A DNA stretch of 64,000 bases, taken from positions 349-64,348 of the forward strand of contig CAMRDM010000001.1 of the NCBI GenBank assembly GCA_947041225.1, written 5' to 3'. Origin of the DNA: an uncultured Deferribacteraceae bacterium. GTDB lineage: Bacteria; Chrysiogenota; Deferribacteres; Deferribacterales; Mucispirillaceae. The position numbers were made by a program. Numbering within the stretch: the first letter of the stretch is position 1; each line of letters opens with the position of its first letter. This document shows positions 6,001 through 15,000 of this stretch, one piece after another.

Positions 6001-9000
6001 AATATTGAGGGAGAGTGAAAACTCTCCCTTTAATTTTGCTATTTTTACAGATGTTTACAATAATAACAGATCTATTACTTTGTGGTAAGAATAGGATATA
6101 TAATGTCTGGAGTAGTTAATTTTATAGTTATTTTGTCATCTTTGAAAAAGGTTATTTTATTAAGATTATCTAACTCTTGATTACCATATCCTGTAACAGA
6201 TAATTTATTTATAAATGAAGTTGTACCTAGATCTAATGATGTAAGGGCAGTGTTATAACTGATATTTAAACTTGTTAAGTTTTTAGTCAAGTTACTTAGA
6301 TCAAGTGTACTTACTTTAGATAGATTATTTAGATCGATGCTCGTAAGATTAGTAAGTTGAGATAGATCAAGTCTGTTTACTTTATGTAAACTACTTAAAT
6401 TAATGCTAGTAAGATTAGTAAGATTAGATAAATTAAGTACAGTTACGTTAGGTATACCATATAGACTAATACTCGTAAGATTAGTGAGTTGTGATAGATC
6501 AAGTGTGTTTAGCATATCCAAATCACTTAAATCAATATTAGTAAGTTTAGTAAGTTGAGACAGATCAAGTTTGTTTAATTGATTTAGATTACTTAAATTA
6601 AGAGTAGTAAGATTAGTAAGTTGAGGTATATCAAGTGTACTTAATTGATCTAGACTACTTAAATCAATACTTGTTAGTCTAGTAAGTTGAGACAGATCAA
6701 GTGTTCTTAATGTGTCCATACTACTTAAATCAATACTTGTTAGTTTAGTAAGTTGAGACAGATCAAGTGTTCGTAATGTGCCCATACTACGTAGATCGAT
6801 GCTCGTAAGATTAGTAAGTTGAGATAGATCAAGTTTGTTTACTTTATGTAAACTACTTAAATTAATGCTAGTAAGATTAGTGAGTTGAGATAGATCAAGT
6901 ATGCTTGATGTATTTATACTACTTAAACTAATGCTAGTAAGATTAGTGAGTTGAGATAGATCAAGTTTGTTTACTTTATGTAAACTACTTAAATTAATGC
7001 TAGTAAGATTATTAAGTTGAGACAGATCAAGTACAGTTACGTTAGGTATATCATATAAACTAATACTCGCAAGTTTAGTAAGTTGAGATAGATCAAGTTT
7101 GTTTACTTTAGGTAAACTATTTAAATTAATGCTAGTAAGATTAGTGAGATTAGATAAATTAAGTACAGTTACGTTAGGTATATCATATAAACGAATACTC
7201 GCAAGTTTAGTAAGTTGAGATAGATCAAGTTTGTTTACTTTAGGTAAACTATTTAAATTAATGCTAGTAAGATTAGTGAGATTAGATAAATTAAGTATAG
7301 TTACGTTAGGTATATCATATAAACTAATACTCGTAAGATTAGTGAGTTGTGATAGATCAAGTGTGCTTACTTTAGATAGATTACTTAGTTTAATGCTCCT
7401 TAGTTTAGTAAGTTGAGATAGATCAAGTATGCTTGATGTATTTATACTACTTAAACTAATACTCGTAAGATTAGTGAGGTTAAATAAATTAAGTACAGTT
7501 ACGTTAGGTATATCATATAAACTAATACTCGTAAGATTATTAAGTTGAGATAAATCAAGTGTGCTTAATTGATTTAGACTACTTAAATCAATAGTAGTAA
7601 GATTGTTAAGTTGAGACAGATCAAGTGTGCTTAATTGATTTAGACGACTTAACTTAAGAGTAGTAAGTTTAGTAAGTTGAGCCAGATCAAGTACAGTTAA
7701 GTTAGGTATCTCATATAAAGTAATACTCATAAGTTGATTAAGTTGAGATAAATCAAGTGTGCTTAATTGATTTAGATTACTTAAATCAAGAGTAGTAAGT
7801 TGATTAAGTTGAGACAGATCAAGTGTGCTTGGTGTATTTATACTATTTAGATAAAGTGTTGTTAGATTAGTAAGTTTAGACAGATCAAGTGTGATTAATG
7901 CTCTTAGATTAGTTAAATTAATACTCGTAAGTTTATTAAGTTTAGATATATCAAGTACAGTTAAGTTAGGTATATCATATAAACTAATACTCGTAAGTTT
8001 ATTAAGTTTAGATATATCAAGTTTAGTTATTTTAGGTAGACGACTTAGATTAAGGATTGTAAGGTTAGTGAGCCCAGATATGTCAAATGTATCTAAACTA
8101 GTCACACCACTTATATTAATATTGGTAAGATTAGCTAGTGCAGATAGATCAAGTGTAGTTATGTTCGGCATGTTTAGTACAGTAAGTGCTGTAAGATTTT
8201 GCAGACGTGATAGATCAAGCGTTTCCTCTGTATAAGAATCAATCCATAATGAAGTTAGTTGAGTCAGATGAGCTATATCAGTAGTCTGTATATTGCTTAT
8301 TCCAGATATAGCTAAATTAACAATACTGTTTTTTATATTATGAAACCCAGTAATATTTTTTATTCCGATTGTACTTAACGTTTTTAAGTTAACTAGATTA
8401 GATATGTCAAGTATATTTAAATGAGTCATAGCACTTATATTAAGATTGGTAAGATTAGTTAGTGCAGATAGATCAAGTGTAGTTATGTTCGGCATGCTTA
8501 CTACAGTAAGAGATGTAAGGTTTCGAAGAAATGATAGATTCAGCGTTTCGTCTGTATAAGAATCAATCCATAATGAAGTTAGTTGAGTCAGAGGAGCTAT
8601 ATCAGTAGTCTGTATATTGCTTACCCCAGATATAGATAAATTAACAATACTGTTTTTTATATCATTAAACCCAGTAATATTTTTTATTCCGATTGCATTT
8701 AACGTTTTTAAGTTAGCTAGCCTAGATATATCAAGTGTCGTAGTATAACCATATAAATATAATTCAGTTAGGTTCGGTGAGTAGGCTATACTACTGGTAG
8801 GTATCCCACTAATACCAGAGATACTTAAACTAAGAATATTATGTTTAATTGTATCAAACCCAGTAATGTTTTTTATATTTATTGCATTTAATTTAGTGAG
8901 TTTAGGAAATTTAGTTATATCTAATAAGGCAATATTTGTATTGTGTGAGATACTTAAATTATTTAGTTCAGGATAATTTGTGTAACTATCAGTGATAGCA

Positions 9001-12000: not shown

Positions 12001-15000
12001 ATTTGATGTTATCATTGTGTTATCGAATCCTGTTACTTCTAACAGATTTGAGAATGATGCTTCACCTAACAATAATTCATTAAGCTCACTGTTAGTATAT
12101 AAGCTTAAGCTTGTTAAATTACCTGTTAAAGCAGACACATCAAGTTTAGTTAATTTATCACCCATATTACTTACAGATATTCTACTTGCTTTAGTTAATG
12201 TAGATACATTAAGAGTATCTTTAGTTATTCCTACCTCATTTATAGAAAATCCTAAAAGTTTTGTTTGCTTAGTTAGATTAACTGTAGTTAAGGCAGGAAG
12301 ATCCTCTAAACCAAGATCTATAAGATTAGGTAGTTTAGTTAGATCAAAAGTTGCTAATGATTGGAAGTGTGCTATATCAAGCCATACCAGTTTAGGTAAT
12401 CCTGCTAGATCAAGGCTTGCAGTGTCATAACTACTAATATGTAATGAAACTAAGTTAGGTAAGTTAATAATATCTCCAAGGATGATATTGCTACTTCCAG
12501 ATATCATCATGGTTTGAAGATTGTTTTTAACTTTATCAAAACCTGTGATCGGAGTATCTGTATTTATGTTCAATGATACTAGTTTTGCTTGTGTTGATAT
12601 ATCAAGAGTTGTTAACGTGTCCATTCGCTGTAAAAATATAGACTCAAGATTGACTAGTTTTGATATATCAACTGATACAAGATTAGATAAATCATCTAAA
12701 AATATACCCTTCAGATTAACTAGTGGTGCTAGATCTAGTGAAGTAATAGGCATCCCACTGAGACCAAGTCTAGTAAGTTTAGCAAGTCCTGCGAAATTGA
12801 TATTAACTATCTTAGCACCTGATATATCAAGAGTTGTAAGGTTAGTAAGTGATGTTAGATCAACTTTAGTTACTTTACTCATAGATAAACTAAGTGATGT
12901 AAGTTGAGTTAGTTTAGATAGATCTATTGTAGTTGGAGAATACATAGATAAACTAAGTGATGTAAGATTAGTCAAGTTAGATAGATCAATTGTATTTTCA
13001 GTATAACCATACAAAGTTAGATCAGTAAGCTTTGTTAATGTAAGCACTTTATCAAGAGCTATCCCACTAGCACCATTTATATTCCATAGGCTTAAAGTAG
13101 TGACAGTATCTTTAAAAGATTCAAAACCAGTAATGTTCTGAACATATGTTGCGATTAATGTTTTTAACTTTGTTAGTCCTGTTAAATTAAGAGATGATAT
13201 ATAAGTACTATTACTATAATCAGCTACTTTAAAATATTCGAGGTTAGTAAGTGAAGATAAATCTACTGGACCCTCGTAACCATTTATCGTTAGGTTAGTT
13301 AGTTTAGTTAGTTTAGTTATTGTATTAAGAGTCACTTCACTTTTTGCAGATATTGTTAAACTTTTTAAAGTTCTTTGAAAGCTCTCAAAACCTTTAATTT
13401 TTGGAACGTTTGTTGCAATCAATGTTTCTAATTGAGTGTATTTTGTTAGATCTAATGACGGTAATCTTGTACCAGATACATCAAGATATTTAACGTTATA
13501 ATCAGCAGCTTTGCTTGAAGATTTTATAGATGCAGAAGCTGGTGTATCATTGATAGATTTTGTAGTTGGTGCTTCTAATGTCGCAATTCTTGTGTTAGAT
13601 ATATCTAATTTTTCAAGAGCTGGAAATTTAGCTAAATCTAATGAACTAATCATATTATTATTAGCTAATGATAACTCAGTTAATATAGGGAATTCTGGAA
13701 GTGAGTTTAATTGTGCTTGAGTTAATCCAGAGTCAGAGTATTTTCTGTCCTCTACATTGTATGAGAAATCAAGTTTTGTAAGTGCGTTAGCGTTGTTAAT
13801 TACATCTTGTAAGTCATTTGCACCTAAGCCACTATCACAAACTAGTGCTGTGCCAACAACTGAACAACTTGTGCCTGTTGGTGGAGTGATATTTGCCTCG
13901 CCAGTTTTTTTAGTTTCATCAGCACATGCTGAAAAAAGTAATGCAGAAATAAGAACAGTACATAAAGATTTTAATGCGTGAAATTTCATATTATAATTCT
14001 CCTTGAAGTTGTACGTAGTATAAAATAATGCAAATACTAGATATCTACTGAAATAATAACATATAATTCTTTAAAAGTATATACGTATTAGTTAATATAT
14101 ATATAAATTATTATATAGATAATATAGCATCAGTTTATTGTCCATTTAAGTATCAAAAAGCTTTTAATCGTATAGAAATAATTACTATATTTACCAGTAA
14201 ATTATATAACTCTCTGTCTGCAACAATATTATTTATAAGCACAAAAAAACGCCGATTAACTCAGCGTTCTATATATATAATATTTTTGTTGTTATACATT
14301 TTTTTTTATCAATCATTAATAATAGTTATTAGTAATAATCACGCAAAGGATATAGTTCTCATATCGGTTGCTAGAAGTTTACAATTGTCGTCAATCATGT
14401 TTCTAATGTGTATCAATTAAAGTTCTAATATCATCAACTGCTTCTTCAGCACGTTTATAAAATACGTGATCGAAGATTTTAGCATCAATATGTTGAGACT
14501 CTTCAAGGTTACATAATATTTTTGTAGCAGATAACTGTGATGCAATAGAAGCGATAGGTATAACATTTCCGTTCGTACCAACAACTACTAATATATCATC
14601 CTTCGTAAGCTTTGAAAACGACTCATACATAGATTGATACATAGGTGCCATCTCGCCGAAAAAAACAATAGACGGTTTAAATATCTTTGATCCACATTTT
14701 TTACATGTATAATTTTTACTATCAAACTCTATTCTCATTTCAAATTCATCATTACACTCTACGCAGTGAATAAAATTTATATGCCCATGTAGATGAGTAA
14801 CATTTTGTACCAACGCTTTCTCTAATAGATTATCGATATTCTGTGTAACAACTTCAACATTGTCAGCACCATATTTATCTTGTATCTCTGCTATAAATAG
14901 ATGCATCTTATTAGGTTCTGCACCTTCATACTCAGTTCTTCTTAAATTATAGAACTCGTGTACGAGATGATAATTATCTCTCCAGTTATTATAATTACAA

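What the first reader, a model, noticed from the sequence alone, without database searches (positions are those of the whole stretch)
6075..13989. Tandem array of three paralogous eukaryote-like LRR lipoproteins sharing a two-Cys cap and a C-terminal module
Seen in the sequence:
- Three consecutive minus-strand genes (1109, 652 and 690 aa) each encode a lipoprotein signal (LFTAC, FISAC, LFSAC).
- Each has a conserved cap with two Cys, P(P/T)TG.SC......LVCD(N/S), reminiscent of LRR N-terminal caps.
- Each has ~100-aa LRR super-modules containing ..NITGF...K..L..L.IS.
- Each has a shared C-terminal module (LDLGT..F.NKLEV.G.GN.....I.FP.DG.VTIELT.PNFYYPSRP).
- Gene 1 has additionally expanded a 22-aa LRR to about 28 copies.

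Inference:
- This is a diversifying family of surface-exposed binding proteins, probably for host or matrix ligands, not a housekeeping function.
- I recognise no characterised orthologue, and the ligand is unknown.
Basis: partly seen in the sequence, partly recalled or inferred. Interest (0 to 1): 0.65.

Follow-up and report, generated by a model that had tools for sequence, protein, structure and literature searches.

The report
Variable array of LRR lipoprotein genes
An uncultured gut bacterium related to Mucispirillum carries three tandem genes for long leucine-rich-repeat lipoproteins of a family found only in its own small clade. Close relatives have three, one or no genes at the same site, which fits fast-evolving cell-envelope binding proteins, but their ligand and location are untested.

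Summary
Three minus-strand ORFs (6075-9404, 9750-11708, 11917-13989) encode paralogous LRR proteins. Each has a lipobox at Cys22, a conserved C-x8-C hairpin cap and a shared ~70-aa C-terminal module. Gene 1 also has a 66-bp x 28 in-frame repeat.

They are a lineage-specific family. A profile of the C-terminal module found relatives only in this Deferribacterales clade among 1.84 billion representative proteins. Neither cap matches any Pfam or NCBIfam model. The nearest relatives by sequence are bacterial internalin-type LRRs, so "eukaryote-like" is not supported.

Each gene is a self-contained cassette ending in the same terminator hairpin, and that hairpin occurs only at cassette borders. In relatives whose flanks are 87-90% identical, the cobB-encapsulin site holds 3, 1 (g1-type), 1 (g3-type) or 0 cassettes. 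A second locus holds further tandem arrays. LRR orthologues have dN/dS of about 0.5, against 0.03-0.15 for flanking genes.

Best reading: variable envelope-anchored binding proteins or adhesins, diversified by cassette gain and loss, repeat expansion and fast substitution. Surface exposure and ligand were not tested. This is a new variant of a known kind, of moderate interest.

The parts
6075..9404 (-). g1: 1109-aa LRR lipoprotein (signal and lipobox, G/D-rich tether, two-Cys cap, irregular LRR modules, 22-aa LRR array, C-terminal module)
   Evidence: ORF. Pfam LRR_EndoS 122 bits, LRR_Zer-1 110 bits, LRR_4 84 bits. Lipobox LLFTAC with Cys22.
9177..9314 (-). g1 low-complexity Gly/Asp/Asn tether between the lipid anchor and the cap, built from 15-27-bp microrepeats
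   Evidence: TRF rows at 9178-9312 and repeat family D15. The orthologous linker differs by one GGDGS unit between L008 and L009, with the remaining 516 aa identical.
9120..9149 (-). g1 two-Cys cap (Cys86 and Cys95, C-x8-C)
   Evidence: Cys positions. The C-x8-C spacing is kept in every family member that has its N-terminus.
8076..8736 (-). 324-bp (108-aa) duplicated irregular LRR super-module carrying the NITGF motif
   Evidence: TRF period 324, 2 copies, 90% matches. Repeat family D14.
6297..8156 (-). 66-bp x ~28 in-frame tandem array of 22-aa LRR units, consensus LDLSQLTNLTSINLSSLPNLTT
   Evidence: TRF 28.2 copies, 73% matches, 0% indels. 29 units in register, with variable positions 13, 15, 16, 18, 19, 21 and 22. 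Copy number is assembly-sensitive.
6078..6296 (-). g1 C-terminal module (73 aa)
   Evidence: Alignment A2. The profile finds only this clade among 1.84e9 proteins.
9405..9662 (-). g1 upstream region (promoter, 5'UTR and RBS), highly similar to the region upstream of g3
   Evidence: The DNA alignment shows long, nearly identical blocks from the hairpin to the ATG. Repeat family D20 gives 75% ungapped identity over 165 nt.
9663..9687 (-). Terminator hairpin H after g2: GGAACGCTGAGTTAATCGGCGTTCC followed by a T-run
   Evidence: Terminator scan. RNA fold -17.4 kcal/mol, z -4.5. Occurs only at cassette borders.
9750..11708 (-). g2: 652-aa LRR lipoprotein
   Evidence: ORF. Pfam LRR families. Lipobox LFISAC. 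AF2 model pLDDT 81.9, pTM 0.77, an LRR solenoid. Foldseek finds LRR structures only.
11556..11585 (-). g2 two-Cys cap (Cys42 and Cys51)
   Evidence: AF2 predicts a beta-hairpin with strands 42-45 and 48-51. This places Cys42 and Cys51 as cross-strand partners, at low confidence, about 55 pLDDT.
9753..9965 (-). g2 C-terminal module (71 aa)
   Evidence: The last ~27 aa are poorly predicted, pLDDT below 50.
11830..11854 (-). Terminator hairpin H after g3, identical to the copy after g2
11917..13989 (-). g3: 690-aa LRR lipoprotein
   Evidence: ORF. Pfam LRR families. Lipobox LLFSAC. Found identical in three samples.
13837..13866 (-). g3 two-Cys cap (Cys42 and Cys51)
11920..12135 (-). g3 C-terminal module (72 aa)
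13990..14245 (-). g3 upstream region (promoter, 5'UTR and RBS)
   Evidence: Shared with g1 and with orthologues in L008, L014 and L012.
14246..14270 (-). Variant of hairpin H after cobB, the upstream border of the array
   Evidence: One mismatch to H. Fold -13.2 kcal/mol. A single H also follows cobB in the empty site of L013.
9632..9836 (-). 205-nt direct repeat covering the 3' end of the CDS plus the terminator. Its partner lies at 11799-12003.
   Evidence: Repeat family D16, 91% identity. This is far above the 42% amino-acid identity of the two genes.

Best explanation
**What it is**

The three genes are members of a lineage-specific family of exported leucine-rich-repeat lipoproteins. The host is an uncultured Deferribacterales bacterium similar to Mucispirillum.

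**Inferred route of each product**
- It is exported by Sec.
- It is lipidated at Cys22 and tethered to a membrane, most likely the outer membrane.
- An acidic or low-complexity linker follows.
- A small beta-hairpin cap, stapled by a Cys-x8-Cys disulfide, starts the fold.
- A long LRR solenoid of about 25 turns (g2, g3) or about 45 turns (g1) follows.
- A family-specific C-terminal module ends it.

**Proposed function**

The most likely job is binding an external partner, that is, adhesion to host mucus or epithelium or to other cells.

**How the repertoire changes**

Each gene is a self-contained cassette with its own conserved promoter, signal-peptide region and 3' end, and with the same intrinsic terminator. 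The repertoire is reshaped in three ways:
- Whole cassettes are gained and lost by recombination between the ~90-200-bp conserved borders.
- 66-bp LRR units and 15-bp linker units expand and contract in frame.
- Amino-acid substitution is fast.

**Shown versus inferred**
- Shown: the protein architecture, the restricted distribution, the cassette structure, the copy-number variation and the raised dN/dS.
- Inferred: lipidation, outer-surface exposure, the disulfide, the ligand and the selective agent.
For: **Architecture**
- ORFs and paralogy.
- LRR families far above Pfam cut-offs.
- AF2 solenoid with pLDDT 81.9 and pTM 0.77.
- Foldseek hits are all LRR proteins: TLR13, SHOC2, InlA, InlJ.
- Nearest solved sequences are InlJ and InlA, which are adhesins or invasins.

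**Export**
- A lipobox with Cys22 is present in g1-g3 and in most relatives.
- Exactly two further Cys, spaced C-x8-C, occur in g1-g3 and in nearly every member that has its N-terminus (a few relatives carry one or two extra Cys). They are predicted to be cross-strand partners in a hairpin. This fits an oxidising extracytoplasmic location.

**Restricted family**
- Only P0002 and P0003 were found among 5.8e9 proteins.
- Only 7 profile hits were found among 1.84e9 representatives.
- Loci are known only in Deferribacteraceae MAGs.

**Variability at the cobB-encapsulin site**
- 3 genes in the window.
- 1 g1-type gene in L008, L009 and L011.
- 1 g3-type gene in L014.
- 0 genes in L013 and L016, with no N gaps and no remnants.
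- L013 and L014 share an identical TypA. They differ by exactly one cassette bounded by ~88-bp direct repeats.

**Cassette borders**
- The hairpin occurs only at cassette borders and folds as a terminator.
- The 5' regions and the 205-nt 3' repeat are conserved.

**Rate and position of change**
- dN/dS is 0.47-0.54, against 0.03-0.15 for cobB, encapsulin, typA and msrAB at similar dS.
- Within g1, the variable positions are the solvent-facing x positions of the main beta-strand (13, 15, 16) and the variable segment. These are the canonical LRR ligand-contact positions.

**Analogy**
- Listeria internalins, T. denticola LrrA and leptospiral LRR proteins are reported to bind host components or mediate attachment (PMC11674859).
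Against: - No experiment or prediction here places the proteins on the outer face of the outer membrane. By default, diderm lipoproteins face the periplasm.
- dN/dS stays below 1.
- Substitutions between orthologues are not clearly enriched at predicted concave positions: g3 vs L014 p=0.67; g1 vs L008 p=0.01, on an ambiguous repeat alignment. Relaxed constraint would explain the rate equally well.
- At a second locus, two relatives (L001 and L002, genes a and b) lack the hydrophobic signal core. One gene (L001_c) has a signal without a lipobox Cys. Lipid anchoring is therefore not universal in the family.
- The first half of each g1 repeat, including its exposed residues, is almost invariant. 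This could mean a structural stalk rather than a diversified binding face.
- The habitat is inferred only from a record label and from taxonomy.
- All comparisons rest on short-read metagenome assemblies of repetitive genes.
Confidence: 0.55

Rival explanations
1. The proteins are periplasm-facing outer-membrane lipoproteins with an internal structural or scaffolding role, for example a spacer or a partner for envelope machinery. The variability then reflects weak constraint rather than selection by an external partner.
For: - The Lol pathway by default leaves lipoproteins on the inner leaflet of the outer membrane (established knowledge).
- dN/dS is below 1, and orthologue substitutions are not enriched at concave positions.
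- Half of each g1 repeat is invariant, which looks like a stalk.
Against: - Presence or absence of whole genes among close relatives, including empty sites, argues against a needed envelope component.
- The family is confined to one small clade.
- The conserved 5' and 3' borders with a variable centre are the pattern of contingency or surface gene families.
- The closest sequence relatives are surface adhesins.
Confidence: 0.15
2. The proteins are released factors, shed by cleavage at the low-complexity tether or carried on outer-membrane vesicles. They would act at a distance on host cells, for example by binding or mimicking host receptors, rather than as adhesins.
For: - Long, flexible G/D/S-rich tethers in g1-type genes.
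- Some relatives lack the lipid anchor or the signal core but keep intact ORFs.
- Foldseek similarity to TLR and plant receptor ectodomains, although this is generic to LRRs.
Against: - No protease site, secretion-system gene or effector domain lies in or near the locus. The neighbours are msrB/msrAB, encapsulin, cobB and typA.
- Most members keep a canonical lipobox.
- There is no enzymatic domain such as NEL.
Confidence: 0.1
3. The proteins are surface-exposed, but the main selective agent is phage or competing bacteria. They would act as receptors or decoys, so gene loss and repeat variation would be escape from predation and not adaptation to host ligands.
For: - Presence/absence polymorphism and allele replacement at a fixed site.
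- At the second locus, the LRR genes of two lineages are 95% identical while their flanks are 85% identical, which suggests recent exchange.
Against: - No match to any PADLOC defence model.
- No phage or mobile-element genes lie next to the arrays.
- Nothing in the data identifies a phage partner. This rival concerns the driver of variation and is compatible with the same protein mechanism.
Confidence: 0.1
4. The array is largely an assembly artefact or decaying junk: collapsed or chimeric repeats and pseudogenes of no current function.
For: - L005 has a 100-N gap and a one-unit offset inside g1, and L006 breaks inside g1.
- A gene caller split g1 into spurious ORFs.
- The exact g1 and g2 sequences are absent from the protein collection.
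Against: - g3 and g2 are assembled identically in three independent samples.
- All three ORFs are intact over 2-3.3 kb in AT-rich DNA.
- The repeat array has 0% indels and stays in frame.
- The cap Cys pair, the lipobox and the C-terminal module are conserved across species.
- Promoter, RBS and terminator are conserved, with a compensatory stem change in L003.
Confidence: 0.03

Closest known systems
Listeria class 1 internalins (InlA, InlJ)
   Same: - Surface-anchored bacterial proteins built on 21-22-residue LRR solenoids.
- They are the best sequence matches among solved structures (3bz5 InlJ, E 3.7e-9; InlA) and the best NCBIfam hits.
- InlJ also replaces the canonical Asn ladder, using Cys. 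Here Leu/Ile sit at that position.
   Different: - Scores are far below the family cut-offs: 69-73 bits against 1600-1700.
- There is no helical internalin N-cap, no Ig-like inter-repeat domain and no LPXTG/GW anchor.
- Anchoring is by an N-terminal lipobox in a diderm.
- The caps are family-specific.
Spirochaetal LRR proteins (Treponema denticola LrrA, T. pallidum TpLRR, Leptospira LIC10831/LRR20 and relatives)
   Same: - Cell-surface or envelope-associated LRR proteins of host-associated bacteria.
- They expand into multigene sets in pathogenic Leptospira.
- They are reported to bind cadherins, extracellular-matrix components or other bacteria (PMC11674859; PMC11629876).
   Different: - No specific sequence relationship was seen. 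The top hits of the 5.8e9-protein search outside the clade are generic LRRs at E 1e-23 or weaker.
- The repeat type differs: a 22-mer with an 11+11 pseudo-symmetry, LxxLxLxxLxx twice.
- The two-Cys N-cap and the C-terminal module are unique.
- A direct comparison with LrrA was not run.
Variable surface lipoprotein gene families of Mycoplasma (Vlp, Vsp, Vsa); comparison from general knowledge
   Same: - Tandem clusters of lipoprotein genes.
- Highly conserved 5' non-coding and signal-peptide regions.
- In-frame tandem repeats in the mature part that change in number.
- Strain-to-strain differences in gene content.
   Different: - The mature part here is a folded LRR solenoid, not a short extended repeat.
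- No phase-variation switch was found: no invertible promoter repeats and no obvious promoter homopolymer tract.
- There is no sequence homology.
Eukaryotic extracellular LRR proteins with Cys-rich LRRNT/LRRCT caps (for example TLRs, GPIb-alpha, VLRs)
   Same: - A long LRR solenoid capped at the N-terminus by a small disulfide-stapled beta-hairpin. This is the predicted geometry.
- Foldseek aligns the solenoid with TLR13 and plant receptor ectodomains.
   Different: - No LRRNT, LRRCT or other cap model matches, even at E<=10.
- There is only one Cys pair.
- The fold matches are generic, with TM 0.3-0.5.
- Sequence-wise the repeats are closest to bacterial internalin-type LRRs.

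Membership tests
LRR superfamily | Significant match to curated LRR profiles | tested here: met
   g1: LRR_EndoS 122 bits (cut-off 27.9), LRR_Zer-1 110 bits, LRR_4 84 bits. g2 and g3: LRR_EndoS 45-47 bits; LRR_4 59 bits in g3 (g2 25 bits, just below the 27-bit cut-off).
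LRR superfamily | Solenoid fold with one coil per repeat | tested here: met
   AF2 model of g2: pLDDT 81.9, pTM 0.77, regular strands every ~11/22 residues. All top Foldseek PDB hits are LRR proteins.
LRR superfamily | Conserved Asn (or Cys) ladder at position 9 of LxxLxLxxN | tested here: not met
   In the 29 g1 units the equivalent positions are Leu/Ile/Met/Val (position 17) and Leu (position 6). Both halves read LxxLxLxxLxx. This is an atypical variant, not an exclusion from the superfamily.
Bacterial lipoproteins (signal peptidase II substrates) | N-terminal basic n-region, hydrophobic core, and a lipobox ending in Cys within the first ~35 residues | tested here: met
   A PROSITE PS51257-type pattern matches all three proteins with Cys22. 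The lipobox is conserved in L008, L014, L003_b, L003_c and P0002. It is absent in L001_a/b, L002_a/b and L001_c.
Bacterial lipoproteins (signal peptidase II substrates) | Actual diacylglyceryl modification, cleavage and membrane sorting | not testable with these tools
   Needs biochemistry (globomycin sensitivity, mass spectrometry, fractionation).
Listeria class 1 internalins | Score at or above the NCBIfam cut-off for InlA or InlJ | tested here: not met
   69 bits against 1600 (InlA), and 73 bits against 1700 (InlJ).
Listeria class 1 internalins | Helical N-cap, Ig-like inter-repeat domain, and an LPXTG or GW wall anchor | tested here: not met
   Pfam scans of the full proteins and of the cap regions report only LRR families. 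The C-termini end ...PNFYYPSRP and ...IIYPILTTK, with no LPXTG.
Eukaryotic LRRNT/LRRCT-capped extracellular LRR proteins | Match to the Cys-rich LRRNT or LRRCT cap models | tested here: not met
   The N-cap and C-terminal segments scanned against Pfam at E<=10 gave no LRRNT or LRRCT hit.
C-terminal sorting signals (T9SS Por_Secre_tail, PEP-CTERM and similar tags) | Profile match of the C-terminal module, and for the CTERM tags a terminal TM helix with a basic tail | tested here: not met
   - No Pfam or NCBIfam hit at E<=10.
- No PDB sequence hit at E<=10.
- No hydrophobic helix at the C-terminus.
- The profile finds only this clade.
BspA/TpLRR-type LRR proteins (Pfam LRR_5), including T. denticola LrrA | Match to the LRR_5/TpLRR repeat profile | tested here: not met
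   LRR_5 (PF13306) is not among the Pfam hits at E<=0.01 for any of the three proteins. No direct alignment with LrrA was run.
Phase-variable surface lipoprotein families (Mycoplasma Vlp/Vsp type) | Conserved 5' region and signal peptide, variable in-frame repeats, tandem gene cluster | tested here: met
   Gene-content variation is shown.
Phase-variable surface lipoprotein families (Mycoplasma Vlp/Vsp type) | An on/off switch: an invertible promoter flanked by inverted repeats, or a slippage-prone promoter tract | tested here: inconclusive
   No inverted repeats flank the upstream regions. No recombinase gene lies nearby. Homopolymer-length variation could not be assessed from single assemblies.
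Anti-phage defence systems | Match to a PADLOC model | tested here: not met
   No family at E<=0.01.

The most novel reading that the evidence does not exclude
The arrays could be a dedicated, recombination-driven diversity system for LRR surface receptors. It would work as follows:
- Cassettes with conserved borders (promoter and signal-peptide region at the 5' end; C-terminal codons and a family-specific terminator hairpin at the 3' end) are shuffled, duplicated, deleted and exchanged.
- Exchange happens between the two loci, and even between species-level lineages. At the second locus the LRR genes are 95% identical while the flanks are 85% identical.
- The signal-less copies at the second locus act as silent donor cassettes.

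This would be a bacterial counterpart of cassette-based antigenic variation built on an LRR scaffold, in a fish-gut Deferribacterota.
Probability: 0.12. Interest if true: 0.7.

Novelty: new variant of a known kind. Interest (0 to 1): 0.4.

Why it matters
Host-associated Deferribacterota, such as Mucispirillum and its relatives, live in or on gut mucus. Almost nothing is known about how they attach to it. The Mucispirillum genome paper mentions ankyrin and TPR proteins but no LRR proteins (PMC5285517).

This family gives concrete candidate attachment or recognition proteins for a likely fish-gut lineage. It also shows a tidy natural experiment: the same chromosomal site holds 0, 1 or 3 cassettes in close relatives.

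If surface exposure and a ligand are confirmed, the family would be a tractable example of how an uncultured gut symbiont diversifies its binding repertoire. If not, it remains one more lineage-specific LRR family.

Tried and rejected
- **C-terminal module as a sorting signal or known domain.** Nothing was found in the PDB profile search, in Pfam or NCBIfam at E<=10, or in the 1.84e9-protein profile search. AF2 of the last 115 aa left the final 27 residues below pLDDT 50, so no fold search of that module was attempted.
- **Defence-system role.** PADLOC gave no hit.
- **RNA element in the conserved upstream regions.** Rfam at gathering thresholds found nothing in the whole window.
- **Invertible promoter.** No inverted repeats lie around the upstream regions.
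- **Hairpin H as a widespread element.** It has 3 copies in the window, all at cassette borders. In fetched loci it occurs only next to family genes. There was no exact match in JGI metagenome contigs.
- **Positive selection focused on the concave face.** Inconclusive.
- **Habitat.** Searches for the sample and run accessions in papers and in one supplement found nothing. The link to the codfish study rests only on the record label 'RIIS20-1' and on that paper's report of a Mucispirillum-like organism.
- **Mobile element or secretion system next to the array.** The neighbours are housekeeping genes: msrB, msrAB, EncFtn, encapsulin, cobB, typA, an IclR regulator and an AI-2E transporter.
- **Same genome for both loci.** I could not establish whether the second locus (L001, same sample) lies in the same genome as the window.

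Full report

Yes. The window has three consecutive minus-strand ORFs at exactly the stated coordinates: g1 6075-9404 (1109 aa), g2 9750-11708 (652 aa) and g3 11917-13989 (690 aa).

- Paralogy: g2 and g3 are 42% identical end to end. g1 is 30-35% identical to both.
- Domains: Pfam finds only LRR families, far above their cut-offs (g1: LRR_EndoS 122 bits, LRR_Zer-1 110, LRR_4 84).
- Signal: all three begin with a basic n-region, a hydrophobic core and a lipobox that fits the PROSITE-type rule, with Cys at residue 22.
- Cap: after that Cys each protein has exactly two more Cys, spaced C-x8-C.
- C-terminal module: the last ~70 residues form a module shared at 46-55% identity. It occurs nowhere else in the 64 kb.
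- Repeats in g1: TRF finds a 66-bp unit x 28.2 copies at 6297-8156 with no indels. It also finds a 324-bp duplication at 8076-8736 and 15-27-bp microrepeats that encode a Gly/Asp-rich linker.
- Register: 29 units of 22 aa are in perfect register.

- The literal cap pattern fits g2 and g3 but fits g1 only loosely.
- The NITGF-type motifs are 63-195 aa apart, not a regular ~100 aa.

One caveat applies to g1. An independent scaffold from the same sample (L005) is 100% identical to the window up to the g1 array. There it has a 100-N gap and a one-unit (66-nt) offset. Another assembly (L006) ends inside g1. The exact g1 repeat number is therefore not secure. g3 and g2 are assembled identically in three samples.

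**2. Whose genes are these?**

- Organism: a scan of species-representative genomes found relatives only in two MAGs titled 'uncultured Deferribacteraceae bacterium' (L002, L003).
- Closest named relatives: the window's TypA is at most 70% identical to named Deferribacterales proteins, and 82% identical to an unnamed metagenome protein.
- Composition: the window is about 31% G+C. M. schaedleri is 31.1%, the insect-gut clade is 40-44% and the shrimp clade is 47% (PMC12887300).
- Habitat lead: the source records carry the label 'RIIS20-1'. This fits Riiser et al. 2020, who found a 'Mucispirillum sp.' in the intestines of Northeast Arctic cod and northern silvery pout (PMC7054092).
- Strength of that lead: I could not verify the accession link. 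A fish-gut origin is a lead, not a result.

**3. How widespread is the family?**

It is very narrow.

- A search of 5.8 billion proteins with g2 returned only two further full members, P0002 and P0003. After them come generic LRR proteins at E 1e-23 or weaker.
- A profile of the C-terminal module, read against 1.84 billion representatives, gave 7 hits. Six are from this clade and one is spurious.
- The N-cap and the C-terminal module match nothing in Pfam or NCBIfam, even at E<=10. They match nothing in PDB by sequence either.
- Full-length g2 is closest to Listeria InlJ and InlA among solved structures (E 4e-9 to 1e-7). NCBIfam gives sub-threshold internalin hits.
- The repeats are therefore bacterial internalin-like rather than 'eukaryote-like'.

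**4. Protein anatomy**

- The AF2 model of g2 (pLDDT 81.9, pTM 0.77) is one continuous LRR solenoid.
- Foldseek returns only LRR proteins: TLR13, SHOC2, InlA, InlJ and plant receptor kinases, with TM 0.3-0.5.
- The cap is predicted as a beta-hairpin with strands 42-45 and 48-51. This makes Cys42 and Cys51 cross-strand partners and is compatible with a disulfide. Local confidence is low, about 55.
- The NITGF segments are irregular, longer LRR turns with short helices.
- The 22-mer is an 11+11 pseudo-repeat, LxxLxLxxLxx twice. Leu/Ile replace the usual Asn.
- In g1, repeat positions 1-12 and 14 are nearly invariant.
- Positions 13, 15, 16, 18, 19, 21 and 22 are variable.
- By the g2 model, positions 11-15 form the main strand. 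Positions 13 and 15 (and 16) are then the solvent-facing x residues that contact ligands in canonical LRRs. This is inference from the register.
- The C-terminal module continues the solenoid for two turns. It ends in a ~30-residue tail that AF2 cannot place, with pLDDT below 50.
- It has no terminal hydrophobic helix and no known sorting motif.

**5. Gene anatomy: cassettes**

- The same hairpin, GGAACGCTGAGTTAATCGGCGTTCC followed by a T-run, follows g3 and g2. A one-mismatch variant follows cobB.
- The hairpin folds at -17 kcal/mol, as an intrinsic terminator would.
- It occurs nowhere else in the window. In all fetched loci it occurs only beside family genes.
- One copy in L003 keeps the stem through a compensatory G-C to C-G change.
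- The regions upstream of g1 and g3 share long, nearly identical blocks from the hairpin to the ATG, although the proteins are about 30% identical. The same region precedes the orthologues in L008, L014 and L012.
- The last ~85 nt of g2 and of g3, plus their terminators, form a 205-nt direct repeat at 91% identity.
- Each gene is therefore a cassette with conserved ends and a divergent centre.

**6. Comparison across relatives**

The cobB-encapsulin site was recovered from four other lineages. Their flanking DNA is 87-90% identical to the window.

| Locus | Genes at the site | Notes |
|---|---|---|
| Window, L005-L007 | 3 (g3, g2, g1) | g3 and g2 identical in three samples |
| L008, L009, L011 | 1 (g1-type, 817 aa) | 55% identical to g1 over aligned columns |
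| L014 | 1 (g3-type, 706 aa) | 75% identical to g3, with one extra 22-aa unit |
| L013 | 0 | one hairpin left; no N gaps, no remnants |
| L016 | 0 | no hairpin; no N gaps, no remnants |

- L013 and L014 encode the identical TypA. They differ by exactly one cassette bounded by ~88-bp direct repeats that contain the hairpin.
- L008 and L009 differ only by one GGDGS unit in the linker.
- dN/dS is 0.47 (g3) and 0.54 (g1). For cobB, encapsulin, typA and msrAB it is 0.03-0.15 at similar dS.

A second locus, between a nitroreductase gene and a DUF2400 gene, holds further tandem arrays in L001, L002 and L003.
- Gene lengths vary there too, for example 497 against 741 aa.
- L001 comes from the same sample as the window.
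- The LRR genes of L001 and L002 are about 95% identical while their flanks are about 85% identical. This hints at recent exchange.
- Two genes in each of L001 and L002 lack the hydrophobic signal core. One gene (L001_c) has a signal without a lipobox Cys. L003 keeps canonical lipoboxes.

**7. Mechanism**

Best-supported reading (confidence about 0.55):
- These are exported, lipid-anchored LRR binding proteins of the cell envelope.
- They are most likely outer-surface adhesins or recognition proteins for host mucus or epithelium, or for other cells.
- The repertoire is reshaped by homologous recombination between conserved cassette borders, by in-frame gain and loss of LRR and linker units, and by rapid substitution.

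Shown here:
- The domain architecture and the restricted distribution.
- The cassette structure and the copy-number and length polymorphism.
- The raised dN/dS.

Inferred, not shown:
- Lipidation, the disulfide, surface exposure, the ligand and the selective driver.

Points against the reading:
- dN/dS is below 1.
- There is no clear excess of orthologue substitutions at concave positions.
- Half of each g1 repeat is invariant.
- Some relatives lack the anchor.

Rivals:
- A periplasmic structural role (0.15).
- Released host-acting factors (0.10).
- Phage- or competitor-driven surface variation (0.10).
- Artefact or decay (0.03).

**8. Relation to known systems**

- The family works like bacterial LRR adhesins: Listeria internalins, T. 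denticola LrrA and leptospiral LRR proteins (PMC11674859).
- It fails the membership tests for internalins: the scores, the N-cap, the IR domain and the anchor.
- It also fails the tests for LRRNT/LRRCT-capped proteins, BspA/TpLRR-type repeats, known C-terminal sorting domains and defence systems.
- Its genetic layout resembles variable lipoprotein families such as Mycoplasma Vlp/Vsp (general knowledge). No on/off switch was found.
- The Mucispirillum genome paper does not mention LRR proteins.

**9. Verdict**

- The finding is a real feature and was accurately described.
- It is a lineage-specific variant of a familiar kind, bacterial LRR lipoprotein or adhesin families.
- It has well-documented cassette-level variability but no functional evidence.
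- Interest is moderate, 0.4.
- The most novel reading not excluded is a cassette-exchange diversity system using LRR scaffolds with silent, signal-less donor copies. I put its probability at about 0.12.

Noticed in passing
L001 9986-12957; L002 8472-12175 (second locus): Two family genes in each of two lineages carry an in-frame deletion of the signal-peptide core and lipobox (MKFNTSKSLSS|TNC..., against MKFNTFKSFMLLTFTAIIFTAC... in L003). They otherwise keep intact ORFs, the Cys pair, the promoter region and the terminator. The upstream 'MENYF' extension is just the conserved RBS region read in frame.
   Followed up: partly
L001 vs L002: At the second locus the LRR genes of two lineages are about 95% identical in DNA, while the flanking housekeeping genes are about 85% identical. 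This suggests recent exchange of the array between species-level lineages. It is the opposite of the first locus, where the LRR genes are the most diverged.
   Followed up: partly
window 9663-9687, 11830-11854, 14246-14270; L003 1365-1387: The family-specific terminator hairpin is conserved in sequence across loci and lineages, although the proteins have diverged to 30-40% identity. One copy keeps the stem through a compensatory G-C to C-G change.
   Followed up: yes
window 6001-14000: GC skew stays positive (+0.04 to +0.31) across the three minus-strand LRR genes, while the neighbouring minus-strand genes are negative (-0.14 to -0.18). The Leu/Thr/Ser/Asn-rich repeats therefore have a composition unlike the rest of the genome. 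They also create long spurious ORFs on the opposite strand (for example 7891-8235), which a gene caller annotated in L005 in place of g1.
   Followed up: partly
window 2778-5943: Next to the array lies an oxidative-stress cluster: MsrB, an MsrA-MsrB fusion with its own lipoprotein-like signal ([19 protein letters not shown]), a ferritin-like EncFtn cargo protein, and a Linocin_M18 encapsulin shell. The cluster is syntenic in all relatives.
   Followed up: no
window 1008-2711; L008 19200-20909; L013 16666-21839: A conserved 565-576-aa protein with no Pfam match lies next to larger proteins that have faint Glug-domain hits in relatives. These may be further envelope proteins.
   Followed up: no
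L008 13287-13600 vs L009 6561-6890: The Gly-Gly-Asp-Gly-Ser linker of the g1-type orthologue differs by exactly one 15-bp unit between two samples, while the following 516 aa are identical. This is either real slippage polymorphism or a short-read assembly ambiguity.
   Followed up: partly
window 9750-11708 and 6075-9404: The exact g1 and g2 protein sequences are not in the 15-billion-protein collection. Yet g3 and all the neighbours are, and g2 is called as a 652-aa gene in L005-L007. The reason is unknown.
   Followed up: no
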